Positions 97 to 53,017 of a stretch of DNA of 53,060 nt are shown in pieces (positions within the stretch are counted from its first letter, which is position 1; the number at the start of each line of letters is the position of its first letter). Origin of the DNA: Phoronis australis (taxonomy: Eukaryota; Animalia; Phoronida); the NCBI GenBank assembly GCA_002633005.1, contig NMRA01000745.1, positions 9,841 to 62,900 of the forward strand, written 5' to 3'. Below the pieces are notes generated by a model. That model did no database searches, was not told the DNA's origin, and was given only the letters and a program-made list of their open reading frames with translations. The position numbers and the translations under genes were made by a program.

Positions 97-213
97 CAAT
101 TTCACAACGATTGCCGGAATACCCGGGGCGACAATTGCAGGTAAAGACGCCTTCACGTAGGCCACATGTTCCACCATTAATGCAAAGGTCAGGGTAACAG
201 GGATCAAGGGGTC
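97..213 (-). CDS. Gene B exon: EGF-like domain
   Basis: ttttag|..|gtaagt, phase 1-1; [38 protein letters not shown], canonical 6 Cys. Confidence 0.93.
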
Positions 214-18647: not shown

Positions 18648-19760
18648 TGTAGTAGTAGGTAGTATGTAGTATTTATTTATTATAGTGACAAGTACAATTA
18701 ATTCAAACAGTTATTGGTATAACATTCCTAAGAAAGATAGGTACCCAGCCCAGTTGGTGTTATTAGTCACTTTAACCACACAACTCGGATGTAGGCCTAC
18801 CATAAATGCCTCGGTTTCTAAGTTGAAAAGCAGACTTGATGTATTTGGCAAATTGCCTACGAAAATGCTGAAACAGCAGTTTTAGCGTATCTAATCTTGT
18901 GAAATCTGCAAAGTTCGGTATTTGAAATGAAACATTATTAAACAGAATAGACCTCCGTGAGTTATAAAGAGAACAATCAAACACAAAATCAGGTCATTCT
19001 CCACAGAACCAGAATCACAACACAAACAATGTCTTACACTTACAAGAGTTTTAACATAACGACCAGTTTCCAAGTGCAATGGGAGATTTCCTGCTCTAAG
19101 CTGAGCCAGAAGAGATCGCTCGGAACGAGATAAAATTTAATCTTTACATACAGCTCGGTAAGAAACCCCTGCTTAAATAAAATGTACGTTCTTAACTTGG
19201 GTTTTGTTAAAACAGACTCAGCCCAAGCATGTTTTGAGTTTTCAAATAGTTTGAGTCTAGCATCTACTATGTTACACATGGTCAAATTTTGAAAACAGGT
19301 TTGCATGCCAGTTATGTTAAATTTTTGATTCCGTCTATCCAACCCTTTCTACCAACAGAGTAGTCGCATAGAAATACCTTCTTAAGTAACCTATCACCAC
19401 CTGTGGTTACTAGTTTGTTCCAAAGACGCAGCATATTCAATTTAAACGGGTGGAGTCCCAACCCATATCGCCACTAACAGCATGAGATGCAGTAAATCGG
19501 TTGACCCCCTAAATAAAAACGCATACATGTAGCTCTGTTTTGAATTTGTATTTGTTCTATCTTTAACGACAGTAAGACACATTCTAAGTTAGAGAGTCAA
19601 TGGAAAATGGAGTTACGCGAAAGTTCATATTTTAAAAAGATCTTACGCAGTGCCTCATAAAATTACAATGGATCCCAGCATTAGATGGTTCCAATTTGGA
19701 ATATTACACAGGATTATTGTAACATATACGCTTAAGTCAACATCCAAGTTCGGGATTCTA
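18648..19760 (-). mobile_element. Decayed 5'-truncated LINE (RTE-X-like ORF2 C-terminus)
   Basis: Frameshifted fragments GVNRFT…GDMGW, KPKLRTYILFK and LHLETGRY…RHCLCC. It ends in AATAAA-containing and (TAC)-like tail sequence near 18650-18685. The clade call is from motif memory. Confidence 0.75.
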
Positions 19761-21279: not shown

Positions 21280-21502
21280 TTAATTATCTACGTAGTTCAA
21301 CTCCAGTAGTTCGTCGTAGGTCGGAATCACAATAGGTTTTACTTTAGGCTCAACTGTAAAAGTACCGGGTTTCTTCTCGAAGTCGTAAATTTTGTTGTAT
21401 GTGGGCGGCATAGGGGCCACCTTCCCTCGTGAGTATATGGGTCGTGTTCCTCCTCTTTGATTGGTCCCCTTGTATTTTTGCAGTGGACCCTGATCGCGCT
21501 CT
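21280..21502 (-). CDS. Gene A last coding exon: cytoplasmic tail
   Basis: tttcag| phase 2; [12 protein letters not shown]…[13 protein letters not shown]…[17 protein letters not shown]. Confidence 0.78.
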
Positions 21503-24500
21503 CTGAAACACACAATGCGTGCATCTGCTGTTTACATTAATGTATACTGTTATATACTTTTGGCATTCCATACCCACATGCAATTGGAATATTAGAAATC
21601 AGTGTATCGTAATGGTGATTTCAATTCAAACATAATCGATTCTTAATTTAAAAATATCGTCATAGGCGAATGAAACATTAAGAGTCTAGATTATCCCGAA
21701 AACGTTGTTGAGTACAGCAGGTTAAAGGAGCATGCCGCCCAAAAATCAACCTATTTTGTATCAATTTAGATCGAGTAGTTCTACTCGGTAACGACACGTA
21801 CGGTTGCGTTACCTGACACCTGACGGCAGACGGAGGTGTTGAAATTATCCAATGACGTCATCGGTTTCACACGCAGTTTGTTCAGCAGTTCACAACACGG
21901 GTTACTGGTGTCAGCTTATCGTTTGAAGTCATCGTTTAACATCAATAAATCATCAAACTTCGATGTAAAACCCTTAAATATACACCAAGTTCTTATAAAA
22001 ACGTGTTGTTTTATTTCGCTGTTACGGATTTATTGGTATTTGGACACAGCCTACAAACTTCGGCTGGCCAATAAGGTCCGTAGCAGGAGTTAGGGGTAAG
22101 TTCGGAGATAATTTCGAAGTATTTTCCGTAAGATACAGACAGGAGAACCTAGATCTGTGTTGTTTAGACTTGTGATTTTTTATTTCTAAACATAAAACGT
22201 TTGTTATCCTGGCCAGTGGCCCGATGCCCGATCAGGCCCGTCGCGGCCGGCTGGATTTACTTGTTATCCCGGCCAGTGGCTCGGAAACTGATCAGACATC
22301 ACGAACATAAACAAGCCAAAGTTGGAAACTAAACTTCTAGTCAGGAAAATACTATACCAGTGAGCCAAATTAATGTGCACGTGATTATGTTGGGGAATTA
22401 GCCACGAAACTGCAAATCTACTTACTCGTCGGGGGCCGCGAATTCAGGTTCCGCTTTGGCCACAACCCCGTCAGGGCTGAAGTTGTACATTGACAATCAT
22501 TATTTGAGTAATGTAAAAGGAAATAAAGATCCCCTAACAGCTGGCCGTGGGATGGAAATCGAGTTGCTTCACAACAGTATCTGCCAGCAAGCACTAAATT
22601 AGCATGAGCTCACACGGCCTAGGTGTCCTGTCAATTAGTTATATTGCACATAAAGCCGGTAACGCAAGGATTTATTCATTGCTGGCTTCTCAAATTATTT
22701 GCACTCACGAACACTCCAAAGGCATTACACATTGCATCTAATGAGACAGACTTTGTTTCAGTTTTATATAAGTATTGGTTAGGGTGAGAATAATTCATTT
22801 TGAAACAGAACGCTCAGTAATAAACGCCAACATGGCACGACTCGCAATCCCGACTTAGGCCGAGCTAGAGCTCATCAGTCCCGACTTCGTAGGTGGATCG
22901 TTAAATTTTACAGGGTATCAATTCGAACAGGAATAGTGACGAAAAAATACGAGAGAGGCGCCGTGAACAAGCTCAGACAACGGAACGTTTGGAGTTATTT
23001 GGTAAGCCGGCATTCGTCAGGCACTGTCGACGTCTGCAGACCACAGACACGGAGATGTTTCACGGCCTCATACCTGCTATTTACAGCGTACATTTCATTC
23101 TTCACTGCCATGAGCCACTTTCTAAGCATTTTGGACTCTCGAGGAAGTAAAAAAAAAAAAACGATATACCCGCTTTCCTTGCTGCTGCTTAGTTCGGACA
23201 AGTGGGAACGATGCACCGCAACATAGCGGCATTCACTCTGCATATGAACCACTGACGTCGCTAGCGTCGTTTCTCACCTTCCTCACAGGTTAACGCGACA
23301 CCTCTTGGCAAGGTAAGGTCGACCGTATGCAAGGCGATGTGGATATAGACCGAATAAGATGGCAAAAAATACTATTTGAATTGGGTGGCATTCTCCTTTA
23401 ATAGAATCAAAACTAGAGGCCAAAGCTACCGTGTTTGTACATGTACATGTATGTGGCTGACTAAATTAACAAATTTGAGTTTTCATGTAAACATAGTTTT
23501 GGCAAAGAAAATGCTGTTTAAGCACGAAGCTATAAGCGAAGTGCTAAATCAAGCGTACAACGGATGAAGAATTGTCAGGCATTTCGCTCTGTTCAGGTAT
23601 CTAGACAGACTGACAGCGTTTGCAGTGTTACATGTAGATCAATCAAATTTTGAGCCCGGTTTAATATTATTCTCCGTCATAGGATTATATGGCCTTTACC
23701 AACTCAAGCCATGGGCAATGCATAAGTGCCCTTTTCGATTTAACAATTGTGAGGTTTGCCAGAATCAATGAATTCTAAAGGGTTTTCTTGAATCGCCTTT
23801 GGATTTGACGTTTTATGTTGGCAACGAAATTAGCACCGTATCACTGTAAGGCCTAATTCAAAATTTTCGTTTTATCAACATCTTAACGGGATGAAATTCA
23901 GTTTTGAAATAATCGCTTCGCCTCGTGCCTTACCAAAAGTTACTTATTCTGTGTATGGGTAGGTGCACATGTTCTCATGTCATGTCAGTACGTAGTTACT
24001 ATTTTATCATCGTCACCGTTTGTCAACTTATAAACATTATTATGACGCTCCACGTAACCAGCAATTCTAATCAGCAATGCTGAAGCATAGCCTTCTGTTG
24101 AGATTAATACTCACATGGTTTCCCGTTTTCTCAGAACGAAGTTTATAAATAACAAATTGATCACCAGACCAATTCCCCCCGCAGATATGATGAGCAGATG
24201 CCACCACTTGAGGTCGCTCGCCCCGGGCTCAAAGCCTGTCTTTACTGCCCACATAGTACGTGATCGGTGGAAAGCTTCAAACTCCGCTTCTGCATCGATT
24301 TCACAGAGGTCACCTAAATATAGTGACAGATATCTCGTCAGAGTAAACAGTAACGTCGGATCAACCATGACGCAACAGGGGTGGGCAGCCTTAGTCTGGG
24401 AATGCAGACAACTCCAAAAGATAATATTTCTGTATGAAAACAGGTATGAAAATACGTGCACTTAGGGAGGGTACAGGAATCCAAGCCATTCTTCCTCTTG

Positions 24501-27500
24501 AGGATGCGACCAAACAGCAATAAAACCGTCGGCGTGCCGTTTTAGAGCTTAAATGAACAGTCTCCATGCTGAGTTCCATATACATGTAAAATCCTATATC
24601 GTTCACTGCTAAGACAATAAATACGCATAAGCGCGTATTTAAAGCAACACGTCCTGTATATGAAACTACACAAATAGCAAGAAATATCTGGAAGTACATA
24701 ACCCATAGGCGAAAAAAAATTTTGAACAAAAGACAACTACATGTACTTCCTAAACACATTGAAACTTGACTTTTCCGTTACAAAACGGTTCATGTTGACT
24801 TTGGAGTCCAAAATTTAACCTCCTTTAAATGAAACGTTCAAAGAAAGGACGACACATGAAAACACCCAGTTTAGACAAACGCACTCATACATGTACAGGA
24901 CTGTGGACCACGTCACTAAGCGAAAAGGTAGGCTCTATCTCCTATCACAGTACTCTACCCCTGCGATGCCAACTCTACCTATGTAAGATATTATTAGAGC
25001 TTGCGACCCCGAGACTAGACGCGAGAGTTCGCGGCTGAGAATAAAGGGTACCTGCTCGACTGAGTTTTGATTGATATAAAATTTTGCATGAATGCCTGAC
25101 TAAATTATTCACAGCAAGTGTGAGGTACCAATATTCTAAAACCTGTGTCTTTATACGGTAGAAATCTTTTGAATCACTGAAATTAAATCACTGGTAGTTT
25201 AAGTAGTCATTTATGGTTCATTTCATTTTGATGTTTCTGTTACTAGTTGGCGTTTTTTGCATTTTGGTAGCACACTCGGTTTTAAGAAATAAACAATATT
25301 TTAAACCGGTCAGGTATGCGAAATTACAATTACTTATGAATTAATATAATCACCAAGAACTGACAAAGGGCTTTGTAATGATACGGTTCTTGTGCAATTG
25401 GGTTGATAAACGGCAAAGTTGCGAAAAGTTTTAATAACTTTAAATTTCCTAACAATTACCCACAACAGAAAACGTAAATACTTGGCCCCACGCATGCGCA
25501 GCGCAAACTCAGCAGCTGTAAAGCCGGAGTTGGCATTCCAGGGCTAGAGTTCAATGCTCCTATATACAAAACACTTCAACACCGACTCTTTGTAAAACTC
25601 ACTGAGGATAGAATGCGTAACAGGATGGCAATACGGAGATGCAGCAAAAACTCTTATCAGGGGACAAGATCGAAGAGTGTGTAACCAGCACGAACTTGGT
25701 TGCATCTCTAAATTTACATTCCGTGCGATACTGGAAGGAGGAGGGCCAGAGACTATCCCGGTGCCTACCCTCTGACGTCACCACAGAAACAGAAACGTAG
25801 AATGCGTCTTGATATGATGGTAAAGGGTATCCCCGCATTGTGTATACAATAAACAGTTTTTCATGGAAGAAGCTAATTACATGTACGTGTCTTTTGGAAA
25901 GTGCTTTACCTATAGAATTGTTTGCGCGTAATGGCACCGGTGCGAATAGTGTGATCCTCAAACAACATCGAAGCAGCCAAGGTCAAGGGTGTTACCGTTA
26001 AATTACAGGTATGTTTAGTAATTGCAGTCCAAAATTTTGAAGTTCTAGAGGTGGGGCTGGCTTGGGGACTTTTTGGGCAGGCGTTACACGTAGGACTCGG
26101 TTTTATCTGCAATCTACTTCAAGAAGGCGAAGCCCCCCACCTCTGTTGCATTTGCGCATTGGTGGTGGCGACTGAGAATTTCGCTGCAAGTTCAGGTAGC
26201 CCTTAAACAAGTCAGAAATGCAAAAAGTGGTTGGTTGACAGTTTTTGGACTACATGTAATATTTTCAGCAACAACTTAAACACGACAATTGCGTTGGCTT
26301 ACCGAAAAAGTTTGCAGGGCAGTCGCACGAGGGAATGGGGGAGGTGTCGTTCGGCAGAAGAATGCAATTCCCACCATTCTTGCAGTAAGGGTAATTCTCC
26401 TTGCAGGGGTTAAAAACATTCACAAGGATCAATTGGCATAGAACTCTAGACAGTAGAGAGCCGGTGGCGTGCTCTGCGCCAACACAGAATCTTGTCCTTC
26501 CTGCAAGACAGTTTTATCAACAGTATGTTGGGCTTAAAAGTCTGCCTAGGTTTGCTGTTCTGTTTTCTAATTTTCAACAATTCAGTGAGTACCTAACATG
26601 CACACTAAAGTTTAAGAACTTTGTTTTTAAGTCATCTTTTGTTACATACATGTAACGCTAACCGAGACAGGTTACACTCGGACACACTAAGCTCAAACTT
26701 AGCTGTATTTCAAAAAAGGGGGAATTTCATGATTGGTAAGATAAATAAAGTTGATTACCCGACTGTTCAGGTTTAGGCTTCCACTCAATTTCAGTCGCTA
26801 GGCGATCGTCCACTATTTCCTCTTTGACTACGCGCATTTCTTCTGGCCCGAGGACTATTTTCAAACGCGGTCTAGATCTGTAAATAGACACGCACATGGG
26901 TCTAAAAATTCATGAGTCTGCAAACTATTATGTAGGTGTGTGTACATCATAGGATGTCGGGTCTTTCTGTCACCTAGGGAATTTTAGTAGCTGACAGTAA
27001 GATAAACTAAGCAAACTTTGTCGCATTGAAACACTATTTTTGGAACTTTTGTCAAAGACTACTTACGACCAGCGGCCAAATGTAATGCTGTTTACCAATT
27101 CATATGCCGCATGGACTAATGCCTTTGTCTTCATTATCGTGAACAACGTTACATTGGAAACCTGGTGTGTACTATCTCGCGACGATTGTCAAGGCACTTG
27201 TAGGCCGAGTCCATTTAATATCATTTAGTAAACGAACACAGTGGTGGATTTAGAGGGGGGTGGGGGCGAAGGGGGGCATGACCCCCTTAAAATTCTCCAA
27301 TATTCCATTGGGCAGTTCGGAAGTGCCTATGTCTGACAGGCAAAATCCTGGCCAATACTCGGCCCTGGCCCCCCTAACTCAAAATCCTGGATCCGCCCAT
27401 AGAACATGGCCGATAATATCTAGGTAGCAAACAAGATACAATGTCGTCATTACCTACATTGAAAATGACACATTTTGGCGAAAGATTTTGGAATCGCTAA

Positions 27501-30500
27501 GTCACGAAAAATTAGCATTGCACAGGTTTGTACATCACACTGGATCTGGTTTATAACAATTACACACAGAAAAATCAGGAACCCAAACTGGGAATCCATT
27601 CACAGGTTTCTAGATTGCCAGTCTTGTGCTCTAACCATTGACCTACTGAGGACCGATATCTGTGCAATTACAGTGTACAGCCAAATGTTATGTCATACGT
27701 CCCATGAGCGGCGTTTTACCTTTTTCGCAAGGGATTTGGACAATTATATACACAATCAGCAATTTACCAGTTTGTGTTAATTAGATGCATTAAATGTATA
27801 GACGCTGAGGTTGGCCAGTCTATATCAAATAAACTGATTGTATATATATGACAAAGCATAAATTAAACGGGCAATAAATCATACCTTCGAAAGAACACGG
27901 ATTGGACAAATTGAAGACGACTAATTGCGAATTAAGTCATGACGCTATTCTTAATGGTTTGGTTATGACGAAACTATTGCTCGTTTTTCTCAATAAATTC
28001 CACGAATAGCACTTGTTTTGAAGACAGGATACCATTATTGATGCAATCACAGACAGTGTGGGGTTGACGGGCTAAGCCATTCAACGGATGAGACAAATTG
28101 GTCACTACACAAGATGTAGATTTTTGAATCAACACTTTTAAAAGTTGTTAACTCGTCTTGTTTTATTCTGAAACTAACAGGAGATAAGAATTAGATGACA
28201 CTCCACACAAACAAGTCCTCTTACAAAGAAAATCTTCCTCACCAGAATTGCAATTTTTCCTGGCCATTTTGGTTTTCACCTATGGAATACTCTGTAATTT
28301 TATGAAAAGTAACCGTGCCCTTGTTGGGAATATTTTATTTAACTGGGCACTAGTGTAAAAACAATTATTCTGATGACGAAATCATTATTTCATATAATGA
28401 CTTCAATCTATACTTAAATCGCCGTTTTGTTAAAACCATGCAGCTTCGAAAAAAATAAAAAGGCAGGATTTTTCAAACCTGACAATTCGAAGATGGAATT
28501 TGCAAGACATCGTCAGTGCGCATCCATAGAATTAGAAAACATACCCATCGGCTGGCAACGTGGTAAAGAACTTCATTCGAAACGTGCTGCCTTTGAGAAC
28601 CACGTGAGACGACGTCTGCGGTTCCATAATCTCTATCGCTTTCCCTTCACAGTCTTTGAATAAAGTTGAAGTCGTCACAAGTATCTGCGGCAGGTTAGAT
28701 AAAAATACACTTAAAATGTGTGATATCATGGTGTGACACTTTTCAGGATTAGCTTGGTCATGGCAGTATGCGAAAATACAACTGGAGAGCGTTGACCATT
28801 GTTAAAATGGTTGCCCAATCACATATACAGCTAGAGCATTCAATGTGAGCTAGTGAAATCACATACCCTCCAAAAGTTAAGATGACCACAGAAACACGTG
28901 TTACGGCGAAGATTGTTACTCTCTTTCGTGCGTATATTTGTATATCCAGTAATTAAACGCTTGATTGGAATTAATAATCATGATTCACCTGTTGTTGTAA
29001 TCGAAAAAACTGTACCTGTAGAGGAACACTGCTCTTAGGCGAAAAAGAGAACTCGTCAGAAAAGTCTTCAAAAATCAGATTCACAGCATAGAATCCTTGA
29101 GGTCGGTAGTGGTTTCCGCTTGTAGCATTGAATGTTATGGTACAGTTTTTCTGGAAAAGAAGTAGTTAAAATCAAAAGTTGACGAATCATATTACTTCAT
29201 TAAGCATTGACACAAAGTATTTCCGCAAGGAATTCGTGAGGTTACCATTCAGTTATAATGACAATCTTTAAAGAGAAGACGATTTTTAAGAGTATTCGTC
29301 TAATCCGATCATTCTCTCCTCACGAACGAAACTAACCTCATCCAATCTGGCGCCAGGAAGTCCAATGCTCGCAGTGCCAGACTCTTCAGTTGTGGCCCAG
29401 CGACACCTTACGACATCGCCATCCACATCATCGGGCAGCGGTAGGTACAAGGAGTGCTCACAGCCAAAACTATATCTGAAGAATAGGTCTCAGTAAAGCC
29501 ACCAACTGAATCTAACTCACAACGTTACAAGGCAAATTGTACCCGCGCAAAGTAGTAAAGCTGTTTTGTCGCACTCCAACACTAGAGACGTAGAAAGAGT
29601 TGACGATTTTAAGTTAACGTATAACGAGACTTTCTCTTTTCAAGAGTGGCAATTTCTTTGATATATTCGAGAAATATTTCAAAAATATAAGTGAGGAGAT
29701 TGCGTTCTATTTGGAATGATTAGGTTTTTAGATGCGAATGTTTGTTTTTAAGTGTATTAGTTGAGGGGTTTTCTTTAAAACTGCCATTTATTTACAAACT
29801 GTCTCTTTTCTTGATTATACATGTACTTGTACATGCACGTCTCCAGCAAGTCACTAGCTGGCGATTGATACAATTTGAATATTCATGGCTTTAATCAGAC
29901 ATAGCATCTTCAACGCACCTGTAGTGAAGCCTTCTGAAGTTAGCAACCGCGGGACTGTGGTTGTTTAAAATGAATGTACCGTTAGCAAACGCATTTAGCC
30001 TGTATTCATCCACGAATCTCCAAGAGAGAGGAGCCCAACCGCTCCCCTGGAACCTGGAAGTGTAAACGTTTGATAGGTTTCAATAACATGCAGGTCATTT
30101 TTGTCACGATCAGCGCTATCTTTTTCACAACAACCGTAACTAAGATCATTATCATCACCATCATCACCAGAAGCAGCCTGATGACTACAATATATTTCAC
30201 CCTCGAAAGAGTCATCGTCTTCGCCAACATCACCAACGACGTCATCGTATCCATAATTACTATCGTTATCACCAGAGGCATGATTTCAGTTATCACCATG
30301 GCAACCATCACTGTCAATTACGAAAATGCACTTTTCTTGATCGTCGTCATTGTAACCGTCATCGTCTGCACCACAGTGACATCAACCACACTTACGGAAT
30401 TCACAATTACAATGTATGCTTCTGGTTTATCTAATATAACTGAAGTCTGTAACGAATGCCTTGTGATAAATATTCTTTAAATGAGAACATGGCGTTTACT

Positions 30501-33500
30501 TGCTTTTGATAACATGGGCACGGTTAAAGAAACACAAAATCTTCGAACATATATAAATTTGCAAACGTAGAACTAAATTGTCTTTAACGTTTTTTCCAAT
30601 CCTCACCGAAGAGAGAAATTAGAGATATCAGTCGTATCGTTGGGTAGCTTGATGACGAAAGACCCAAGTCCCATCTCGTAGTCTAGGTCATTCGAGGAGT
30701 GCCCTATGTTCACCTCTTCAATGTAGTACTTGTGGTCAACCGTCTGCACCACTGTCTCGTTGAAAATGACCACAATCTCTCCCACAGACTTCTTGCCACC
30801 TTTGCCTGTAAAATATTAATTTCTGTACTGGTATGAAGGATCTTGAAACAAACCTGTCAAAAACTCCCTTTGAGCTAAATATTTTAGATGCATGTGCACA
30901 AGCCTCGAAATAATTGAGAGTTTTTTACCCCGTAAACAGACTGACACGTCTACTAAAAAGTTACTGTTTCAATGCTTAAAATACCACGTGTACAATCTTC
31001 TCCAATTACATTGCATTCCAAGGTCCTCTTCCATAGGTGGCGCACCTCACATTTTTCACTGGTGCACTGCCCATGTCTTGCGTTTTTCAATATTTTGGAG
31101 ATTGTAATGGGTGAAGACACTTGAGCACAATCGTCAGAGATGTTAATACAATGCTAAGATAAAACGGTAATTGTCTTTAGTGCCGACATTAGATACTGTT
31201 GAAACTTTACTCACCGACGTCCGAGACGTTGCAGCTGAAACCACACGGTCCAAATCCAAGTTTCCATTGAGATCTATATGTCACTAAAATCTGAAATTGG
31301 GAAGCAACTTCATATCTCAATTGCAATATCTACATGTATTAGAAAAAATCCCAGGTCACAGCTGCATAAAGTTAAAGGCTGCGCTTGCCAACACAAGCGC
31401 ATCACAAATCGCACGTCACTTAGCTGTCGTTGAGGAATGTTTATTACGTCACAGGGCAGTCAGAGTTACCAAGTGGATATGTGTTAAGTTTCTGAGAACC
31501 CAGTCCAGAAGCAGTATTAATGTCACCTATTTAAACTGATGAATTTCTAAGAATTTATTGTGGAAGGAATGAGATCCACAGAAACAACGACAAATTCAGG
31601 AAGCGTTCTTTTTTTATGAAGGTCAAGCATTCGCGTTCCCACCAATACTAGAAATTGCAGCACCACCGTCGGCTGCAAGTTCGGTAGAAGCAACATCAAC
31701 AGCAAAGCAAGGAATGACAGCAATGTAGTCGTAGAATTAGTAATGAAGTAGTGGTAGAAAACAAAAGCACCCAAACGAGCAGAAGCAACGTTATACAAGG
31801 AAAGCATTCACAGCGGATAACACACACGAGAGCACTTTCGATCTCTTTCTTAGAGTTTTGTCAAGCGCAGTAACATACGCAACAAGCATCTGTAATTGTG
31901 TGATCTGTACTGCACCTATTATATTGAATAAAATTCTAAAAGAAAAACATACGCATCATCTACACTTACTTTTCTCTTACGAAATACTAATGATGATCTT
32001 TTAACATGTTCCACCGTTCTACACAAAGAAACATCAACGATACAGAAATGCATTTGCAATTACGCCTCAGTTACTTTTGTGAAATGTTGAGATCATTTAC
32101 TTACGTGACCTCTTTCTCTCTTCCTCACCTCATTCGATGAGTTGTGCCCCTTAATCCAACTCATTGCACCCCCTATGTAATAGGGTCCTTTTTCACAACT
32201 GTCACCGTGGTACTCATAGCGGCACTCGCAGAAGTGATTTCGTCGTGTTACATTGAGAAAATCTGGGAATTAAGACAGTGTTTGCTCAAACAAATGTTGC
32301 ATAACTCTTAAGGCTACCTAGGAGTTTAATGAACGACCTCAACTACAAGTCAAATATCGAAAACACCATGCTTGGTCAACCACTAAAGTGTATAGTTGGT
32401 GATCTTAGAAAGATCATGGATTCTAAAGATATGCTTCTCACTGCTTTGTCTTTATTATCGTCACGTGACCACGTTCTTTAGTCAAATGTTCATGTGCAAA
32501 GATACATTAATAACATAACGACCCAGCCGATTTCACCAAAACTTCTTAAAGGGAAACTTTGCGAGTCTCAAAAACGCCACTAAGATTTTGATTTAATATG
32601 CCTAGTCTTCGCGTACCGAGCAATATGCGAATAAGACTACTTTTTTTTTCAAAAATGTGTTGTATTTTTCGACTTAAATTATTACAAAACACTAAAGTTT
32701 ACCAAATCTTTCTAACAGCCACTCCAACTGGCGGGAGTCAAATCTAACGCAAGAGGTCATGATGTACACTGGGGTCATATTCGACTCACTTCTCACAAAG
32801 AACAATCTTGGACAAATTAATTGAAATATTTTTGCAAATTGACCACGCCGATGGTATTATTGATTTTGATCAAGTTTACTACCTTAAGCTTTGACAATTT
32901 GTTGTGCAAATTTCCAACCTAATGCTTGATTTGACTGGTCCCAATTAAAAATGTTGTCATTTAAGCTTTCTAAAGAGGCATGGAACACGAAAACATCTTT
33001 CGGGGGAAATCTACTACTTGAGAGTTGCTCATTTTGAACGTGCAAGAATTTCTGCGTCAAATTCATTTCGAATCACATGATATAAAACGTCTTTCAATCC
33101 AAAACAGTTTGCAAAGTCACCGCCTCTATCAATGCACTCATGTGCTCAAAGAACAGAGACAAGAAAACTGTGTTTCTTTTTAAATGATGCAAAAACCCAC
33201 CAGCAAAGCCACAGACTAGCTGGTGCGCCATTCTTTCTTCACTGTTTTTTACGTCGGCGTAAGTAAGCGGTTTTTGGAATTTGGACACCTCACATTTTAC
33301 CTATCTGAATACACAAAAAATCACCGTTAATTTTTCTCGTTTCTGTTGCACTTTGACGACCGTCGTGTAATCTATTTAATAATCAAAGGGGTCACTCCTT
33401 CATTTCAAACGGCGTTCCAATGAATCATAGCAATTGAGCCTTCTTAAAAGTGCACCAGTTTCGATATCACGATGAACACTATGCATCTATTTAATTGGGA

Positions 33501-36500: not shown

Positions 36501-39500
36501 TACTGGGGGAATAGCTTTGTTGGGAGGGGAGTTGCTTTCTTGGAAGGGGATTGCTTTTTTGGGAAGGGAGGTTGCTTTCTTGGGAGGATGGGTTGGTTTC
36601 TTCGGTCGGGATGAGGTTTTCTAGGGGATCGGGAATGCTTTCTTGGGAGGGAAGATTGTTTTCTTAGTAAAGAGAGCTTTCTTAGAAAAGGTAGTTGCTT
36701 CCTTGGGAGGATTTGCTTTCCTATAAGAAAGAGTTGCGTTCTTGAGAGGTGAAGATCTTTCACAGATGATGTGGGACAACTCGCTTTCATAGAAGCGCAT
36801 TTTACTTAAAAAGTCATCTGCATTGACTTCAGAGAATGACTCAAAGCCGAATGGAAGAATTGCTATAAAATCTGAAACACCCAGTATCTTTTCTTTTATA
36901 AATCTGGTCAAAGCAAATAACTTAATCAGGCAACAAATATCCCTAAGTGTAATTTGAATTTTAAAACTGAGTGGGTCCCATGAAATCTATACACTCCCAA
37001 GTTCAAGTAAGCTCAACCTTTTGCTCTCTTTATGATACAACCAATATGTTCTGCAAGAGTTTCAAGAGAGTGTTTTGATGAGCTTAACATGGTGGCAGGA
37101 CCAAGGTAAAGTGAATTCCGCGCCAACTTCGTTGATTCTTTGAAAAAAAGATGAAGGGATCGAGATACGATGAAAATCAATGAAATGAAATCCCTTAAGC
37201 AGGCCCAAATTCTCAAATAGAGTTATGACAGGCTGGACCTGCACAATGCCTCTTCGCAAAATCGCTCCATGCCAACAAAATTTTCTGGTGGAACCTCCAA
37301 GACCAATAAGATCCCAGATCAGAGGTGGATTATAATATACACTTACACAAAGAGTGCTTTAAGCCCGGTGTGCATTCCTTAATTATTAAAAATTTTGCTT
37401 GAATTTGAATAACATACACGGTGGTATCCAAAAGCTGTGAACATAGTTAACGCAATGAGCCACAACAGCCAAAAACATTTTTTTTTCCCAAAGAGATGTT
37501 ATTTTATGTTGTTCATCAATTTTTCAAGTGTGCAGGCGTTCTGGTACACCTTTTATAGGACATGCGCACGCACAGGTGGGACCATTGCGGTTGTCACCTG
37601 CAACCGTTTTAAGTTTTATGTCTGGGTGAAACTTAGCCGAGGAGCTAGACACATGACACAAATACGCCCCAGCGGGACTCGAACCCACGGCCTTCAGTAA
37701 AGACAGCGGGAACTTAGTGCATTTTGGACACACTGCATCCTGCTGCAGGAATGGCTACTTATAATATCTAATTTACCTGTCATCGGAATTTCCAGACACT
37801 GTCCACCATTCAAGCAAAGGTCTGGTTGGCAAAAAGCTGTAACGAGTTGAAAAATAACGATTCAAATATCTCGTGAAGGCAATGATGTAGAAACATCTGC
37901 ACGTTGTATGTAAACCTTTTTACAACATCGTCAAGGCCTTAATACATGAACAAGATGACAGTAACTGATATATTGAAGCACTTGACATCTATCGAAATTG
38001 AACTCTAGATATCGCTACATGTATTTTATCAGAGGCCTGTTTTCCAAAGAGTGTATTGGAGTTTGTCATTTCAATTTCACTTCAAGATCAAACTATGGAC
38101 GGATTAACATGTTTCATGGGAACCAAACTAAAACTGAATGTTAGAAAATGTGTCAAAACCTGGAAGTTAAAGGACACAAATATGTAATCTGCTGGAATGG
38201 ACAGAAGATACCAAACAAACTTTCAACATTTGGGTATTTGTGGTTGGATTTTTTTGGACAGAGGTCAATAGGCTCGGAGAGAAACATGCCAAAGACATAT
38301 AATACGGGTCATCTTGAACGAAAACAATGTTGCTCTTACACTGATGGCACTTAGGCGGCACACTCCAGTTGCCGTCATCTTTACATGTCACTTGACTACT
38401 GCCCAGCATGTAGTGCGTTTCGTCACACGTATACGAAGCATCCGATAAATAGGTTGTGGCGTTATACTTGACGTTGGAATTGGATACCTTAGGAGGGGTT
38501 CCGCAATCCTTAACTGTGAAACAGAGAGAAGAAAAGTTAATCGTTACACACAAGTAAAAATTGTGCCTACTCCATTTGAATCATAACTCGAACGCCTATT
38601 CAACAGAATGAGAAACATATAGTTGAACTGACGGGAAGTTCTTACAAGTAGGCCTACACGAGACATTACATATCGATTCAAGGGTCCTTTTCACGATGCC
38701 GAATTTATTCAGCTAACAGACCGTTGCCTATCATGATCTCTTGATTAAGATAACTGAAAAAACAAAAATGGACCTAAAGTCAAAGCTGAACCACTTGCCC
38801 TACGTATAAAAGTGTCAGGTGAACCATAGGCAAACAAATATGCTCTCTATTAACCTTCCGAGCTACGTCATGAAGACTCTGAATATCGAACAAGGGATTC
38901 ATAGTTGTGAAAATTGATTATCCGACCTGTAAAGTTCCAAACTTAATAAAAAATCAGTACAAAGGCGGATGTTGTTGCATAATCTTTGTGTGAGTTACAT
39001 AGCCGGACATGAAGCAGGACAGTGCTCGGACAGCGCCCTGATCAGTGTCAGATTTAGAGGGCCGTCAAGGGGGCCATGGCCCCCCTAAAATTGTCCCAGA
39101 TTACATTCGGTATTTCGGAGGTGCGCATGTCTGACGAGTATAATCCGACTAATACTCTGCCCTGCCCCCTCCCTCAACTCAAAATCCTGCATCCGCCCCT
39201 GCTGACACTAAGGGAATTGCACTAAAATCCTCCATTCTTCTTATCAAGGAAAAAACGGTTTCTCCTCATTCAGTCTACGTGTATCACAATGCACCAGCGT
39301 TCAACTGTGTCATTGTTAATTTAACTTGTCTATCATTAAATGCCCGTTACCGAACATCATCTTTTTCGAGTATTGCACCATGCTTGTGGTTAGTGACAGT
39401 TAACTATATGATCTAACTTCAACCGAGTCAGTAGGGGATTAATGAGAGAAGTGACTGCCGATTGGTCAAGAATCAGATTTGGTGGACAGAAATTCAGTTG

Positions 39501-42500
39501 CTAAGTGATTCACGACCAGAGAACGGTCAGCCCCTGAATTTTCCACTAATCATATTAGCTTTTTACAACACCTGGTATGGAAATTCTCCCGTTTTACCAA
39601 CAACATCCACTGCCATGGCTTTGTCCTGGTTACATCTTCGCTGTGTAGAGGTCATCATTGGTAGATCCAACCGAACAGTAGTGGACATTTTCCGGCATTA
39701 TAATAACAAAAAATGAGTTAAAACGCTGTCTATGCCAGAAGATGAAACATCCCGTTCACATTACATTGGATCAGTACGTGGCGCTGAATGCCTGTCCACC
39801 AAACATCTGATCGCCGTTTTGCGGGTAAGTGGTTTTCAATATGGCGCGGCTATTTCGAAAGTCAGCTACACTGGTTGCAGGCTCGTGTGTTATATGTATA
39901 GAATTGATGATGATGACAACATGTGAGTGACACAGACACGTTACACACAGTCACACAAAACTTGGAAACCGTGCGAATTATGAGAGTTATAGCAATGTGT
40001 CTTCCATAGAGGAGGGATTTTTAATGTTTTTTACTTCAGTGTTGCCAAGCAACAGACACAGAAGCCATTGACAATGAAGCACCTTCAGAGGGTGCTGCTG
40101 GGAACGGAAAGGGACCGTAAGCAAATAGGTTCGAATAAGTGGCCGCCGGTGTAGCCGTCGTTTCTGGTGAGGAGTGGGATAACGCGGCAAATTAAGAAGA
40201 CGATGCCCGCACCACTGCTGATGTTTCTTCATCGCAAGTGAAAGAACATAAAGATTGCCGGAGGTCAGCAAACAAATATGAGGCAAAGGCATAAGTTTAA
40301 GTTTCGTTTATTACTTGGAATTAAATATGACGCAAGTCCTACGATAGGGTCTAGCTGGAGTACGCAAGAACAGAAATATACGACAAAAATTGTCATTTCG
40401 CCCTGCGTTTAAAGGTGTGCACTGGTTCAAGGTAAGGTGAGATAAACAGTTTAGTTTATGTAGTTTAAATGTTACACAGAGCATTTTTTCAATTTATTTT
40501 TCATTTTAGCAACTGCGGTACGGAAATGTTGAAATCATCGTGTCATAAAATATAGAAAAATGTGTATCCTATTGCGACACATAATCAAATCTTGAATGAC
40601 ACCTGACTTTTAAACAAAAAAACTTCAAAACAATTTTGAATATTTTTAGCGAAATTTAATGTCAACTAAATCGGCAATTAACAATGAAATAATTAGAATA
40701 CTATTTAAAATGTCAACACAAAAGATTTTGTGTTTATTTAATGCAACGTATAGTAAATTGTGTTATGATTAGACCTTAACCAATTAAAGAGTAGGCAGCT
40801 GAACATGCCTTTCAGTTCAGCAAAAGTCTTCATGTTGTCGGTGACGCCGAAGATGAGACAAAATGAAAGAGGAATTGCGAGCCCTTAAACCACTCAATAA
40901 GTAGCATCTCGTGACTAAATTCTGTTGAATAACACAGATGAATAGGTAAAGATCTTAATCGTTAGATTCCATTGTAAAATATTGTTAACAAAGGTTAAAA
41001 CACTTTCTAAGTAGCAACTGATGACGTTACCGTCCACAATGACTGACGCGATCCAAATAGGTGACAAAACTTTTTCCACAAATATTACCACAAATGCTTC
41101 ACCCAAAATTATTTTTTTACTATGTGGTATGCGTTATTTTTCGATCATGTCTGCAGAATTTTTTCAAAACGAAAAAATGGTTCAACTGCCTTATTTCGAC
41201 TTCCTTGTGGTCTTCATTTGCAGTCTTCTCACAGGCAACACAGTCTCACATGTAGATCAGAAGGGAATCTGTGAGCAAAGACCCCAACCGTAGGTGTATT
41301 GTCACTACTTTCCACTACAGAGCGGTATGGTGATCTCCTTTAAATGCCATCCTCGGTTAAATTAAAACTATCGTGTTAAAATTCGTTAGAAACACTAGAA
41401 CTTTAGGCACACCTAAATGGAGAAACTCGACCGACTCGACATTGCTTGGGTCATTTGTCACTTTCGCGAGGTGTTTACGGGAGATGAACGAATCTGACAA
41501 GTTCGTGTTTTCTTACTTTTGTGGGGAAACGGGAGCGTTTTTAAACGTAAACTACACACGAATTGCGAAATAAAAAATCAAGAAATTTATGTAAGACATG
41601 CATTTATATTAGGATCATCAAATAAGCTTTCAATCTATCCCTTTAATTATAGGTCACGTGATCTACCAGGTGTATGAAGACATATAATGCTATGTTATAC
41701 CACACCGTATGAGCGCTGTATTTTTGATGTCACATGTAGTTTTAGATAGGATGTATGGATGCGCCTGTCTAAGCCCTATTAGCGTAACCAGGTGAATCAT
41801 ACTTAAAACGAAATCAATATCTTACTCTGACATTTAGGTGGATCCTGCCACTGTCCATTTTCTTGACAAGTGATGTTCGACTCTCCTCTAAGGTCATACC
41901 CGATGTTGCAATAGTACAAAGCCTCCTGTCTGCCAGTTATGTCATCGGATTCACGAATAATCTGGTTTCTCCAACCATTTCGGACATACGGCGCTGAACC
42001 ACACTCTCGAACTGCAAAGATAAAAAGACCGGTGCATGTAAAGCGTTTAACTTAACTTTATCTCACTCAAACCTCTTGTTTAAGTAAGTTTGCTTACACA
42101 TGAAACATAAGGCATTAGGTTATCTTGGTTTCCATGAAGCGAGCGGAAGACCCATAAATTTGTGTACTTATAGTCCGTAATTTACACTAAATCTCATCAT
42201 GTGCACCACAGTAATGTCACGATTTCTTGTTCACATGACTGGGTCATTTCTAACAAATCGTCAATTTTCACTGAGATAGCTGTTTTTCCACAAACTTGAA
42301 ATTTGAAATAAAATGTTTGTTCATTCCGCCATTTAACACTCCTTAAGGTTACGTAGGAAGCTCCAGAAATTTCCAAATTTGTCTGAATCGGCTGATTGAG
42401 AATTTCTGATAGTTTAATTCATGCATTGTTCTCTAACACTTCCTATGGGATTGTTTTTAAAATGTTCCCGTTTTGTATGCGAGCCTATAAAAATGACTTT

Positions 42501-45500
42501 TATGACTTTTCAAAATTGCATTAAACGAAAACGAAATGACTTTTACAGTAACAGCGTTTTCCTTATGTATTGAAAAAGATTTGATCATCTCATTGACAAC
42601 GCTGTTTTGCTATACATATACCTTTCTTTTTAGCTAAATTTTGGTTAATAGATGGTCACGATATCAAATTAAAAATGGATTGGTAAAAGTCCACAATCAA
42701 ATTCTAAAGGCTTTTGTACTTTCAGAAAACTTATACTCTTACCGATTTAAAATCTATAGCTTTGAAGATATTTGGTTAAATACTGAGACTTGTACAAACG
42801 TGCTATATACTTTAACCTTAACACCTTTCCTAAGCAGTTCTTTTCAAATACCGATTAAAACGCGGCTATCCAGGCGTCTCAGAAGAAAGCGTTTTCACCA
42901 ATTACTTTTTGAATTGAGAGGACATTCAGCTATCCTGCAGTTACATCCTCGAACCAAGACATTCCCTGAAGATACATGTACTATTCCTGTTCATAGTTAT
43001 GTAATTACAGCTGTATATTGAGACTCCTTTGCTGAGTGTATACATCCCGTGCAGAACACGAAACGATTTTGAAATTAAATAAGTTTGTTGCAAGCATGTA
43101 TTATGAGAAGGTTTGGTTAAGTTAGAAGCGGTGTTATGAACGTATTGTGGAACCGTATGTGAGCGAGCAGGTAGCCTGCGATATCAAACGGATTAGAAAA
43201 AAACTAATCCACCACCCACCCTAAGTGGTATGCCAAACAGAAGTCCACAACATGCGGAATTTGCATTCTTTCTTTGATCGCCAATCATTTCAGCCAACTT
43301 ACAATTGTTCTGCTTGCGTGAATGACGTACGTCCATGCAATGAGCTACATGTACTCCTGTGACAGCTTTCCTGATTGGCTCCAATGGTGAATACTACATG
43401 TAAAAGGTTGTGGTTAGCGTAATTTACGCATTCGGTCAGGTTGTTCTAGTCTCCTATGCAGTGAACAGTAAGAGTATGTTGTAAACTTGAGGTAAGATGG
43501 ACAGACGTGAGTAGCAATGTACGGTGTATCAAAAGCACCATTGACCAAGCATCAGTAAATTTCAGGATGTTAAAACATGTTACCGTGACAATACGTGTGT
43601 GTGTAATCTCTCGTGCACGAGCAGTTGTACCCGCCAATATTCCGGTCACAAGTTGCTCCGTTCGTGCATCTGTTGCCGTCACAGTTATCTGCAAAGTGAA
43701 ACCACGGTGCCATTGTTACTATTGAATTGACTTTTAGTGTATACGACCTTCTTCAATAAAAATAATGATGGGAATCACTGATTCTCGAAAATGCATAAAA
43801 TGTAAACTTGCAAGCACCTGCCTTTGCGCACTATGGTTACGAAATAGCTTGGCCCTGATTGTATCAACTCTTTTAGAAATACCTATTATCCATTGACAGA
43901 GTAACTCAGAAGTTTTATTTGTATTGTACACATCAGTCTTTTAAATCAAGACTGAGTTCGCAATCCATAAGCAACGAATTCTTTAGACACACAGAAGCAA
44001 AGTAAAGCGCCTCAAAATTGAACCACAAATGTCTTTGAAACAAATACCTGTTTGGCAGTGTGTTCCTCGAAACCCAGACTGACACTTGCACACATATCCT
44101 ATCCACCGGTCTAGCTTCAAACAGGTGCCTCCGTTTTGGCAAGGATTAGACAAGCACGGATCTGGAATGACAGGGATCCCAATACAAATAAAACATTGTA
44201 ACCCCTCGCATGCAAACATTGCCTTAAACATATATATGACCTTATGAACATGTCTGCATACATATATTTAGCCAAATATATATTAAACCATGCATTCCAT
44301 ATGTATTTTTGAATCTAGTAGGCATGTAGATTGCTAGATTGGTTAACAATCTGCCATTTATTGGGTCAAGTCACTATGTCGTTTGGTTTTATTAGCAAAA
44401 AAATGAAAGTTGCTAGAGCAATTCAACGATGCCGTACCTTTAACATGGCCGTTTGATATAAACATTCAAGGTGAAATCTTACAAAATAGGACCGTTTGTC
44501 ATTGCTCAATACAAAAAGCCCTGCCCCTAGTTGAAGCCTATTAATACTCTGTTTGTTCCTCTGCTTCATTGTCACTCACTCAATCTCCCCACATGTCGTC
44601 AGCAGTTTCACATTAATGTTTGACCCCCGGTGAATTCATCTGACTGACACGTAGGCAAAAATAAAAAAATGAAACAAACGTCGTAATAACCACATTCAAA
44701 TGCAATGCTTGGGTATGTTCGTGGATATTATAAATCCTCGACGAGCGATTTCTGGAGACCTGATGTTGGAGTAACAAAATGCTTGATTAGAAAGTTTTTT
44801 GATTGATCATAGATACAGAAAGCAGACATTATCCTTGTAGGAGCAATGCCGTGTATTTGAAAAAGCTGTAAAATAACATTCCAATGCAATACAATTCTTT
44901 GTAAAACTTACAACCACGAACATGAAACAAAAACAGAACGATTTCAACACAAAAAGTATTCGGCGCAATAGCCACTACGCTACCTGTTATTAACGCACCG
45001 ATTTCCCGGTGGAGGCGCATGGTGCACGTGTTGGCGTAGTTCACTGAGAAGCAAGCTTCGAAGACTCGCTATCGATTGCGAGTATAAAAAGGCAGTAAAA
45101 AGTGGTGAGGTAAAAATGTAAGTGATAGTTGTATTTTTCACGTACATGTGTCAGTGACATATGCTGTAGACAATACTATCTAAGGAATCGAAGGGTAACT
45201 TCTTACCTATGCAGTGAGGTGCTTGTTGCCATGTTCCGTCATCCTGACAACGTATGGTGTTACTTCCTCTCATGTCACGCATTGGGTTACACCCATAGGT
45301 GGCTTCCTGTCGGTGGTTTTTGATAAATTCTTTCTCAACATTACCGTCAAGGACGTTTGGAGGAGGGCCACATTTTATAGCTAAAGTAAATAACTGAAAC
45401 TCACAATCAGGCTGTCAAAACCATTGCAGTTTATTTTTAATGAAGTCAATCACTGCTACCTCATAAATCAATATATGAGTATACACTTAAAGTGTCGAAT

Positions 45501-52193: not shown

Positions 52194-53017
52194 CTAAAAC
52201 AAGGTCCCAATCAATCAATGGCTTTTAACTTTCAATAGTCATTGAATAAAACTAATTCGATATTTATTTTCATCCTTGAATAATTGTCAGTGCAATTGAG
52301 AAAAACCGTGTCAATAAAAGGATAATATATTGTTACTTCGTTTGTCCTCCTCAGTCGATAATTCGGTTTATGGTATCGGAAAGCTGACATTAAACCGTCC
52401 AAATAAACAGTAAGCACTGTTTTCATTAGATGTATTCATTCCATTTTAAATTTGATTGGTTGTGGGAAGGTAAACGCGATACGTTGCAACTTAAGTAAGT
52501 TAAAAATATTTGAGTTAAGACGTTTTAAACTGATCGTGTGGAAGCAATGCGTTGTAGCTGACATGGTTTAACGCGGCGTCACAATACACTTTTTTAATGA
52601 ACTGCTGTTGGATTATTGTTTACTGTACAAGGCTATGTTTCTTCATAATGTAATTCTAGTTATCGTCATTCATCAACAACATCACTAAAGTCACCATCAT
52701 CATAAACACCACCATCGTTGTCGTCGTCGTGGTCGCCATTGTCGTCCTTATCGACATTACCGTAACATCAGTATTAGTTAGTATTACCGTAGCTGTGTTT
52801 CCTCTTGTCATTTGGTCATCGTCATTCATCGTCTTAATTATCTTCATCGTCTTTGTTTAATTTCCCAAGGTGTAGCTTTCCATAGTGCTTTCATTGACTT
52901 TCGTTGAAACGGCTGCCATGGGCAACGTGAGAGCAAATTGATCTCCAAATTATTCATGCTCCCATGCACCTCATCCGGCTGCCAGCTTGATGCCAATATA
53001 ACTATCATTAGAGTACA

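What the first reader, a model, noticed from the sequence alone, without database searches (positions are those of the whole stretch)
26410..32190. Uncharacterised ~330 aa 'X' ectodomain with SibA-like / bacterial-like motifs
Seen: nine in-phase exons encode YYIGGAMSW…ILVTYRSQW…C…C…FQGSGW…NNHSP…[13 protein letters not shown]…CTITF…[10 protein letters not shown]…SSVPLQ…WKP..EQSG..FC. From memory (unverified), this motif string occurs in invertebrate proteins loosely annotated 'integrin beta-like'. It also resembles the N-terminus of Dictyostelium Sib adhesins and secreted Bacteroidetes proteins (HxxGG…NxxP…DxDGD). The DxDGD loop suggests Ca2+ binding in a cadherin/Ig-like sandwich. A patchy distribution or ancient transfer is possible.
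Basis: partly seen in the sequence, partly recalled or inferred. Interest (0 to 1): 0.75.

Follow-up and report, generated by a model that had tools for sequence, protein, structure and literature searches.

The report
Amoeba-adhesin module relocated in animal receptor
This expressed animal gene carries a real but already catalogued module, shared with amoeba adhesion proteins and secreted bacterial proteins, that is predicted to fold into three sandwich-shaped domains; relatives carry it at the outer tip, but here it sits next to the membrane and has lost the tip's conserved residues, so it likely acts as a calcium-stiffened stalk.

Summary
Real, spliced and expressed, but not unnamed. Nine minus-strand GT-AG exons read in frame. 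RNA reads show 6 of 8 joints exactly, one approximately and one not at all. The unit is about 360 aa, not 330. Relatives occur in corals, an anemone, bivalves, echinoderms, hagfish and killifish, many labelled 'integrin beta-like protein'. Several pass the cut-off of Pfam PF24907 (Sib N-terminal domain), as does a T9SS-secreted bacterial protein that aligns over the whole unit (HHalign 99.4%). The window copy links to these only through profiles; no Dictyostelium sequence was obtained. Models of homologues give three beta-sandwiches. The NxSP, DxDGD and ED residues are kept, so a Ca2+ site is likely. Animal copies form one group and share an intron position, so the module is old, not a recent transfer. 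New here: 61 of 74 homologues start the unit with HF[RL] within their first 60 residues, and a hand cleavage rule places the His at mature position 2 in all 61. The window copy is internal, follows an EGF in the same exon, and has lost the His and the Cys-Cys pair. It is not a Sib or an integrin (no NPxY).

The parts
32129..32262 (-). Exon a: last three Cys of an EGF domain, then without an intron the start of domain 1 (YYIGG at 32182-32168; Tyr in place of the family His)
   Evidence: joint a/b
31215..31290 (-). Exon b: domain 1, strand B and BC loop
30607..30805 (-). Exon c: domain 1, middle strands
29919..30053 (-). Exon d: end of domain 1 (GSGW where most relatives have xCCW) and the NxSP linker (29962-29951)
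   Evidence: joint c/d; joint d/e not listed
29337..29475 (-). Exon e: domain 2 with DxDGD (29429-29415) and VRCRW; its 3' phase-0 intron position appears shared with coral-like and bivalve-like relatives
29016..29150 (-). Exon f: domain 2, ED motif (29072-29061) and SSVPLQ
28545..28684 (-). Exon g: end of domain 2, start of Ig-like domain 3
26759..26877 (-). Exon h: domain 3 with WxP
26303..26500 (-). Exon i: end of domain 3 (two conserved Cys; the unit ends near 26421) and a juxtamembrane EGF
24115..24313 (-). Exon j: end of the EGF, linker, one transmembrane helix (about 24206-24135) and a basic stop-transfer stretch
21280..21502 (-). Exon k: cytoplasmic tail and stop; no NPxY; one PPxY and two Yxx-hydrophobic motifs
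37777..37836 (-). Predicted exon with the first three Cys of the EGF that exon a completes
   Evidence: sequence and phase; no RNA test
38340..38513 (-). Predicted sushi exon
   Evidence: Pfam PF00084 E 4e-11; no RNA test
41826..42011 (-). Predicted sushi exon
   Evidence: PF00084 E 4e-9; no RNA test
43584..43688 (-). Predicted EGF exon
   Evidence: PF00008 E 3e-5; no RNA test
44048..44161 (-). Predicted EGF exon
   Evidence: PF00008 E 7e-10; no RNA test
45207..45380 (-). Predicted sushi exon
   Evidence: PF00084 E 9e-10; no RNA test
52077..52193 (-). Predicted EGF exon, the most 5' one visible; the gene would continue beyond the window end
   Evidence: PF00008 E 2e-9; the chain of 18 exons is open for 874 codons; no RNA test

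Best explanation
Nine spliced, expressed exons encode a unit of about 360 residues that is homologous, through animal relatives, to the N-terminal module of Dictyostelium Sib adhesins (Pfam PF24907/PF24908) and of T9SS-secreted bacterial proteins; it is predicted to fold into three beta-sandwich domains and here likely works as a calcium-stiffened, membrane-proximal stalk of a type I surface protein rather than as its binding tip. Shown: the exon structure, expression, the EGF directly in front of the unit, the EGF-TM-tail behind it, homology over all three domains, retention of NxSP, DxDGD and ED, and loss of the His and Cys-Cys. Predicted on homologues only: FnIII-like domain 1, all-beta domain 2, Ig-like domain 3. 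Inferred: (1) Ca2+ binds at the domain 1-2 joint and stiffens it, as in cadherin-like repeats; (2) in typical members the free N-terminus, His2, Phe-Arg and the Cys-Cys loop form the distal ligand site; (3) this copy lost that site when EGF and sushi repeats, probably led by a vWA domain, were placed in front of it; (4) binding now falls to those outer domains, so the protein would be an adhesion or recognition receptor. The PPxY and Yxx-hydrophobic motifs of the tail would serve turnover and uptake, not talin binding.
For: The spliced window protein scores 125 bits (E 2e-31 at Z=1e9) on a profile built without it. An animal-only profile cut into three parts scores it 27.6, 87.5 and 17.4 bits, and scores the bacterial P0115 38.0, 30.5 and 38.0 bits: domain 2 is best kept and domain 1 has drifted. 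Its domain 1 scores 31.0 bits on profile A2 against 7.0 for the best of 500 shuffles, and 16 of 21 members of A2 match PF24907 at E<=0.1. In 33 non-redundant homologues the linker N, S and P are each 33/33, the D-x-D-G-D positions are 33, 31, 29 and 33 of 33, and the later D is 32/33; the window keeps all of them. DxD motifs with linker Ca2+ that is thought to stiffen adhesin repeats are described in PMC12153261 (passages). 61 of 74 homologues have HF[RL] at residues 17-42; a (-3,-1) cleavage rule fits His at mature position 2 in 61 of 61, position 1 in 20 and position 3 in 4. The window has Tyr there and an EGF in front within exon a. Cys-Cys is in 20 of 34 units, including both bacterial-type ones, but not in the window. 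AF2 on homologues gave pLDDT 81 for the whole unit and 88 for domain 1; domain 3 matches Ig folds (Z 10.6, rmsd 2.1, 88 aligned) and domain 1 matches FnIII folds weakly (Z 8.3, rmsd 2.5, 81 aligned).
Against: No function is known for this module in any organism, so 'tip site' and 'stalk' are both inferences. The window protein itself was not folded, none of its nine exons alone matches PF24907 at E<=1, and it does not hit the bacterial proteins directly with phmmer, so the link is transitive. No Dictyostelium protein was among the 65 hits. Domain 2 was not fold-searched alone, and the Z values for domains 1 and 3 are ties among common folds. P0113 and P0114 lack the His although the unit is N-terminal, P0116 keeps a His motif although it is internal, and 9 of 29 complete units keep the His without Cys-Cys, so position and site loss are not tightly coupled. 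The cleavage rule was a crude hand rule, not a signal-peptide predictor, and the 74 proteins include many near-identical coral isoforms. Exons upstream of a were not tested with RNA, and the vWA is inferred from a paralogue.
Confidence: 0.55

Rival explanations
1. The internal unit is still a binding element (glycan, matrix or a second copy of itself) with changed specificity, as membrane-proximal Ig domains of receptors can be.
For: All three domains are kept under purifying selection. Aromatic residues remain at the old tip (YY, W, GW). Domain 3 resembles the streptococcal GspB Siglec-like domain (Z 9.8) and receptor D4-D5 Ig domains. Bivalve relatives without Cys-Cys still carry the unit as their tip.
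Against: The fold matches are ties among generic Ig domains. The most conserved tip residues are the ones lost, and domain 1 is the most drifted part relative to its profile.
Confidence: 0.3
2. The protein is an animal counterpart of Sib: an integrin-beta-like receptor that binds through a vWA domain and couples to talin.
For: The Sib N-module is present by transitive homology. The tandem paralogue has a vWA with a DxSxS motif ahead of the same EGF exon. The TM helix holds small-xxx-Gly residues.
Against: There is no NPxY in the tail, nor in the last 120 residues of the 71 animal-type homologues checked. The domain order would be the reverse of Sib's (Sib order recalled and implied by the Pfam names). 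EGF and sushi repeats are not listed for Sib in the passages read.
Confidence: 0.06
3. The module entered this animal lineage by a recent, lineage-specific transfer from bacteria.
For: Full-length bacterial homologues exist; no insect, nematode or tetrapod protein was among the hits.
Against: The 30 non-bacterial rows (29 animal, 1 unnamed) lie on one side of a long branch (SH-aLRT 100) from the 4 bacterial-type rows. The unit has 8 introns, and one position appears shared with coral-like and bivalve-like fragments. The window copy is closest to bivalve proteins (27-30% identity) and 15-18% identical to the bacterial ones. An ancient transfer, before cnidarians and bilaterians split, is not excluded.
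Confidence: 0.03
4. The upstream EGF and sushi exons belong to another gene, and the unit begins near the N-terminus of a shorter protein.
For: No RNA joint upstream of exon a was tested.
Against: Exon a has an AG acceptor and opens with half an EGF whose three missing Cys lie in the in-phase exon at 37836-37777; the whole 18-exon chain is open; reads cover exon a to at least 32251.
Confidence: 0.05

Closest known systems
Pfam PF24907 SIBA-E_N and PF24908 Ig_SIBA-E_2nd (N-terminal domains of Dictyostelium SibA-E)
   Same: Homologues of domain 1 pass the PF24907 cut-off (P0002, P0064, P0075, P0115); the stretch of P0116 that aligns with domain 2 passes PF24908; the order is the same.
   Different: The window copy is internal, lacks the His and Cys-Cys, and matches only through profiles. 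PF24908 was not matched by any animal protein scanned.
Invertebrate 'integrin beta-like protein A/C/D' (e.g. XP_052678609.1 oyster; Mytilus VDI38378.1; C. virginica LOC111128890)
   Same: Same three-domain unit at 26-30% identity, followed by EGF repeats and in several a TM helix; one intron position appears shared.
   Different: There the unit follows the signal peptide and the EGFs come behind it; in the window gene EGF and sushi repeats come first and only one EGF follows.
T9SS type A-sorted bacterial proteins (P0115; the L004 ORF at 3914-8497)
   Same: Signal peptide, HFRxG start, xCCR, NSSP, DxDGD and WxP, aligned over 297 columns.
   Different: They lack the animal disulfide Cys, continue with He_PIG/Big_9/HYR repeats and a T9SS tail, and have no TM anchor.
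Dictyostelium SibA-E adhesins (whole proteins)
   Same: Type I membrane proteins that share the N-terminal module; possibly also a vWA domain.
   Different: Sibs have a vWA, bacterial-type repeats and two NPxY motifs that bind talin (PMC9197732, PMC10983970, passages). The window tail has no NPxY. A preprint reports no Sib outside dictyostelids (10.1101/2020.04.29.069435, passages).
Bacterial cadherin-like / BIg adhesin repeats (He_PIG, Big_9, CHDL)
   Same: Domains 2-3 of P0115 match such repeats; DxD motifs with linker Ca2+ are described for them (PMC12153261, passages).
   Different: Domain 1 is not shared: none of the 18 plasmid hits reaches before residue 129 of P0115.

Membership tests
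SIBA-E_N (PF24907) module family | Score above the Pfam cut-off (28.1 bits) | tested here: inconclusive
   The domain is split over exons a-d; single exons do not match and the spliced form could not be scanned against Pfam. Homologues pass.
SIBA-E_N (PF24907) module family | Full-length homology to PF24907-positive proteins | tested here: met
   125 bits on A1; domain 1 scores 31.0 bits on A2 against 7.0 for the best shuffle; aligned end to end.
SIBA-E_N (PF24907) module family | His-Phe-Arg start directly after a signal peptide (feature derived here, 61 of 74) | tested here: not met
   Tyr-Tyr-Ile in its place, with an EGF in front in the same exon.
SIBA-E_N (PF24907) module family | Following Ig-like domain with NxSP and DxDGD | tested here: met
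   All positions kept; 87.5 bits on the domain 2 profile.
Dictyostelium Sib adhesins | Cytosolic NPxY motifs that bind talin | tested here: not met
   None in the tail; the tail exon is joined by RNA reads.
Dictyostelium Sib adhesins | Extracellular vWA domain with MIDAS | tested here: inconclusive
   None in the visible 874 aa; the 5' end lies outside the window; the paralogue has one.
Dictyostelium Sib adhesins | Glycine-rich TM helix (GxxxG) | tested here: inconclusive
   Three Gly in SAGGIG give small-xxx-Gly but no strict GxxxG.
Dictyostelium Sib adhesins | Direct sequence match to SibA-E | not testable with these tools
   No Sib sequence was returned (a word-limited search).
Integrin beta subunits | PSI, beta-I, hybrid, I-EGF and beta-tail domains; NPxY tail | tested here: not met
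   No integrin Pfam family on any exon or homologue scanned; no NPxY.
Cadherin / cadherin-like Ca2+-binding repeats | Acidic Ca2+ ligands at the domain joint (linker Asn, DxD loop, later Asp) | tested here: met
   Residues present and nearly invariant; their role as ligands is recalled from cadherins and from PMC12153261 passages, not measured.
Cadherin / cadherin-like Ca2+-binding repeats | Cadherin fold and Pfam match | tested here: inconclusive
   Foldseek lists protocadherins among generic Ig tandems with TM about 0.2; domain 2 was not searched alone; no PF00028 on animal homologues.
His-brace copper proteins (LPMO, CopC) | His at mature position 1 | tested here: not met
   In homologues the rule favours position 2 (61 of 61) over position 1 (20 of 61); the window has no His there.

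The most novel reading that the evidence does not exclude
The Sib N-terminal module is an unrecognised adhesion head shared by bacteria, amoebae and animals up to fishes. Its working end is a free N-terminus with His at position 2 beside a Cys-Cys loop, a metal-assisted or glycan-binding site that explains why it almost always sits right after the signal peptide. The window gene is a natural test case: the module was moved behind a vWA-EGF-sushi arm, the site decayed and the Ca2+ joint stayed, which rebuilt Sib's parts in reverse order in an animal.
Probability: 0.2. Interest if true: 0.75.

Novelty: new variant of a known kind. Interest (0 to 1): 0.45.

Why it matters
Sib proteins are the main adhesion receptors of Dictyostelium; their ligands are unknown (PMC10983970, passage) and they have been reported only in dictyostelids (10.1101/2020.04.29.069435, passage). 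Their N-terminal module turns out to be a common animal building block. It is fused to EGF, CUB, ZP, vWD, SRCR, Ig/FnIII and an adhesion GPCR from corals to fishes, and it is mislabelled 'integrin beta-like' in transcriptome papers (PMC7430831 and PMC6429463, table rows). Pfam names the domains, but my searches found no study of them. The His2/Cys-Cys tip gives a concrete hypothesis for what the module binds, and this degenerate internal copy is a ready negative control. The locus itself is one diverged member of a large family.

Tried and rejected
Exon e alone found nothing in the word-indexed protein search (37 candidates, none at E<=1). Of 16 hits in the full scan I dropped 4: P0001 and P0011 are low-complexity repeats, and P0003 and P0009 are generic bacterial Ig repeats with DxDGD that do not score on the unit profile, so DxDGD alone is no evidence. 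P0117 (E 4e-4) is a Big_7 repeat protein absent; dropped. L001, the only hit in genome contigs, lies out of frame inside an unrelated ORF; rejected as chance. PDB sequences: none at E<=1 for A1, only weak OspA matches for A2 (best E 0.011), rejected. Foldseek gave no match at E<=0.001 for domain 1; LPMO and CopC were not among the 50 VIA rows shown, which does not exclude them. Viral contigs: 75 pattern matches, none confirmed. PF24907 was found in 0 of 301 genomes of the phylum of G001 and 0 of 14 controls, with no positive control (one search likewise), so it says nothing on absence. No second copy of the unit lies in the window. The ORF at 3989-4183 looked like a lectin fragment but had no Pfam match. 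The careful tree did not finish; only the quick tree is reported. No homodimer prediction was obtained, so self-binding is open. No whole genome is held. No RNA holder was listed by index, but raw reads with the same species label mapped. Earlier scan notes: nothing relevant. Papers: searches found no study of this module in animals (listings seen; one search showed 30 of 65, 25 of 235, 20 of 46). Cornillon 2006 and 2008 are not held. PMC7148315's 'integrin beta-like protein' is a true integrin by its listed domains, and PMC4890752 did not bear on the question (passages). The supplements of the bioRxiv preprint, which hold its Sib motifs, were not seen and may bear on the Sib comparison.


Full report
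1. What is in the sequence. The finding is the 3' half of a minus-strand animal gene. Two more exons add the end of an EGF, one hydrophobic helix and a cytoplasmic tail of about 75 residues with a stop at 21280. Raw RNA reads with the same species label show joints a/b, b/c, c/d, e/f, f/g and g/h at the predicted bases, h/i 1-2 bases off with one letter between, and no listed joint for d/e; i/j and j/k are shown by 29 and 32 reads. Of 30 listed differences between reads and exons a-i, 20 are synonymous against 22% expected. Upstream, Pfam finds three EGF and three sushi exons plus half an EGF. The 18 exons join into 874 open codons, but these upstream joints were not tested with RNA. Exon a itself holds the last three Cys of an EGF and then the start of the unit, so the unit's internal position does not depend on those joints.

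2. Relatives. A full scan with exon e gave 16 hits, 12 of them true relatives. A mussel hit gave 13 proteins, and an 11-row profile gave 65 longer proteins: 58 named as animal, 4 unnamed but animal-like and 3 others. The named ones come from corals, a sea anemone, bivalves, starfish, sea cucumber, crinoid, brittle star and hagfish; a killifish protein came and rotifer-rich clusters in the Atlas (scores 0.90-0.93). Partners of the unit include EGF, sushi, CUB, ZP, vWD, SRCR, Ig/FnIII and a GAIN-7TM adhesion GPCR. Several are named 'integrin beta-like protein A, C or D'. The spliced window protein scores 125 bits on the profile, which did not include it, and is 26-30% identical to its nearest named relatives, all bivalve. 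The unit spans about 360 residues.

3. Sib and bacterial links. PF24907 (SIBA-E_N) is precomputed on 18 of the 65 hits and passes its cut-off on P0002, P0064, P0075 and P0115. 16 of 21 domain-1 stretches match it at E<=0.1. P0116 passes PF24908 (Ig_SIBA-E_2nd) on the stretch that aligns with domain 2. P0115 has a T9SS sorting domain above cut-off, and its relative in L004 lies among bacterial genes such as gltX; that T9SS marks Bacteroidota is recalled. HHalign pairs the animal profile with P0115 at 99.4% over 297 columns, and an animal-only domain-1 profile scores it 38 bits, so the link is not just shared Ig repeats. The limits: the window's single exons do not match PF24907, it does not hit the bacterial proteins directly, and no Dictyostelium sequence was retrieved.

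4. Fold. AlphaFold2 on an oyster homologue gives three all-beta domains (pLDDT 81, pTM 0.80). Domain 3 matches Ig-type domains (best Z 10.6, rmsd 2.1, 88 aligned, tied with many, among them GspB Siglec-like and SraP domains). Domain 1, folded alone from a coral homologue (pLDDT 88), is an FnIII-like sandwich with an insert and no close solved relative (best Z 8.3, rmsd 2.5, 81 aligned; no Foldseek match at E<=0.001). Domain 2 was not searched alone. The window's own sequence was not folded.

5. What is conserved and what this copy lost. Among 33 non-redundant homologues the NxSP linker, DxDGD and a later Asp are nearly invariant, and the window keeps them. This resembles the Ca2+ sites at the joints of cadherin-like repeats (cadherin geometry recalled; DxD motifs and stiffening described in PMC12153261, passages). 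A second pattern is the start. 61 of 74 homologues have HF[RL] at residues 17-42, and a hand (-3,-1) rule puts the His at mature position 2 in all 61, at position 1 in 20 and at position 3 in 4. Of the other 13, ten look truncated at the N-terminus, two are N-terminal without His, and P0116 has the motif inside the chain (my reading). A Cys-Cys pair after strand F is in 20 of 34 units, both bacterial-type ones included. From the strand order I infer that the N-terminus and this loop lie at the same, distal end; I had no coordinates to check. Xaa-His N-termini can bind Cu or Zn (recalled). The window copy has no free N-terminus there, Tyr for His and Ser-Gly for Cys-Cys, and its domain 1 fits its profile much less well than domain 2 does (27.6 against 87.5 bits). 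The only other internal animal copy seen, the second unit of P0002, follows a TM helix and tail and looks like a fused gene model.

6. History. In a quick tree of 34 units the 4 bacterial-type rows are split from all others by a long branch (SH-aLRT 100). The window row has a long branch and joins the bivalve EGF-type group at 94, with a long-branch warning. Nine of 11 short genomic fragments stop matching at the column where exon e ends and continue with Val, as a read-through GT donor would give. They include two coral-like fragments (74-77% identity to coral proteins) and several bivalve-like ones. The module was therefore probably in the cnidarian-bilaterian ancestor. Without amoebozoan and broad bacterial rows the direction and number of older transfers cannot be told.

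7. The paralogue. Window 80-438 and 3561-3947 match 52060-52984 at 69-80%. That copy has vWA exons at 9734-9925 (with DxSxS), 8343-8498 and 5378-5551 ahead of its EGF exon. The gene of the finding therefore probably begins with a vWA beyond the window end; this is inference.

8. Mechanism. Most likely (0.55) the protein is a type I surface receptor whose outer vWA/EGF/sushi arm binds ligand, while the Sib-type unit acts as a Ca2+-stiffened spacer at the membrane with its ancestral tip site decayed. The main rival (0.3) is that the unit still binds something. A true Sib or integrin counterpart is unlikely: there is no NPxY, whereas Sibs bind talin through NPxY (PMC9197732, passages).

9. Novelty. 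The domains are in Pfam and the label is in NCBI, so the module is known as a sequence family. Ten paper searches showed no study of it in animals. Passages of a preprint say Sibs were not seen outside dictyostelids, and others say their ligands are unknown. PMC3279395, PMC5758549 and PMC3002383 were seen as passages only; the two Cornillon papers were not held. Verdict: a new variant of a known kind. Interest 0.45, mainly for the family-wide His2 tip hypothesis that this degenerate copy helps to test.

Noticed in passing
window 1-9925, minus strand: 5' part of a tandem paralogue: vWA exons (9734-9925 with DxSxS, 8343-8498, 5378-5551, probably one more inside 4994-5305) and an EGF exon near 80-200; exon and intron sequence match 52060-52984.
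   Followed up: partly
window 21723-23401 and 46242-47901: A 1.7 kb element in two copies (75% identical), each in an intron of the gene, covered by many reads from other copies; likely a DNA transposon (the THAP-like look is recalled; no Pfam match at E<=0.002).
   Followed up: partly
window 14181-15776 and 18775-19473, minus strand: A 253-codon frame with a coiled coil, followed by an endonuclease-like start cut by an N gap, and further RT-like remnants; looks like decayed LINE elements (recalled; Pfam gave only weak coiled-coil hits).
   Followed up: no
window 30010-30605: 12 reads join exon c to position 30010 inside exon d with unknown letters between, and depth is low over the rest of exon d; a diverged allele or paralogue transcript may exist at the Cys-Cys-equivalent loop.
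   Followed up: no
window 36076-36763: Degenerate tandem array of a 20-21-base unit in the intron upstream of exon a.
   Followed up: no
window 30139-30360, 52659-52856, 3653-3757: Intronic GAT/GAC-rich simple repeats that read as acidic frames; the last two are shared between the paralogues.
   Followed up: no
window 21408-21397: PPxY motif in the tail, a possible WW-domain (Nedd4-type ligase) site (recalled).
   Followed up: no
P0079 / P0127 (Crassostrea virginica): The module heads an adhesion GPCR (EGF, Ig, HRM, GAIN, 7TM), a handle for finding its ligand through receptor signalling.
   Followed up: no
P0035 (killifish) and P0111 (hagfish): Vertebrate members exist: a killifish protein with a mucin-like stretch and hagfish proteins with a vWD domain; no tetrapod hit appeared in these word-limited searches.
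   Followed up: no
L003, L004, L006: Bacterial relatives keep a near-identical N-terminal module but differ in length and middle domains (about 1000 to 1700 residues seen).
   Followed up: partly
P0116, residues 137-330: A PPC domain is inserted inside the SIBA-E_N domain of this bacterial-type protein.
   Followed up: no
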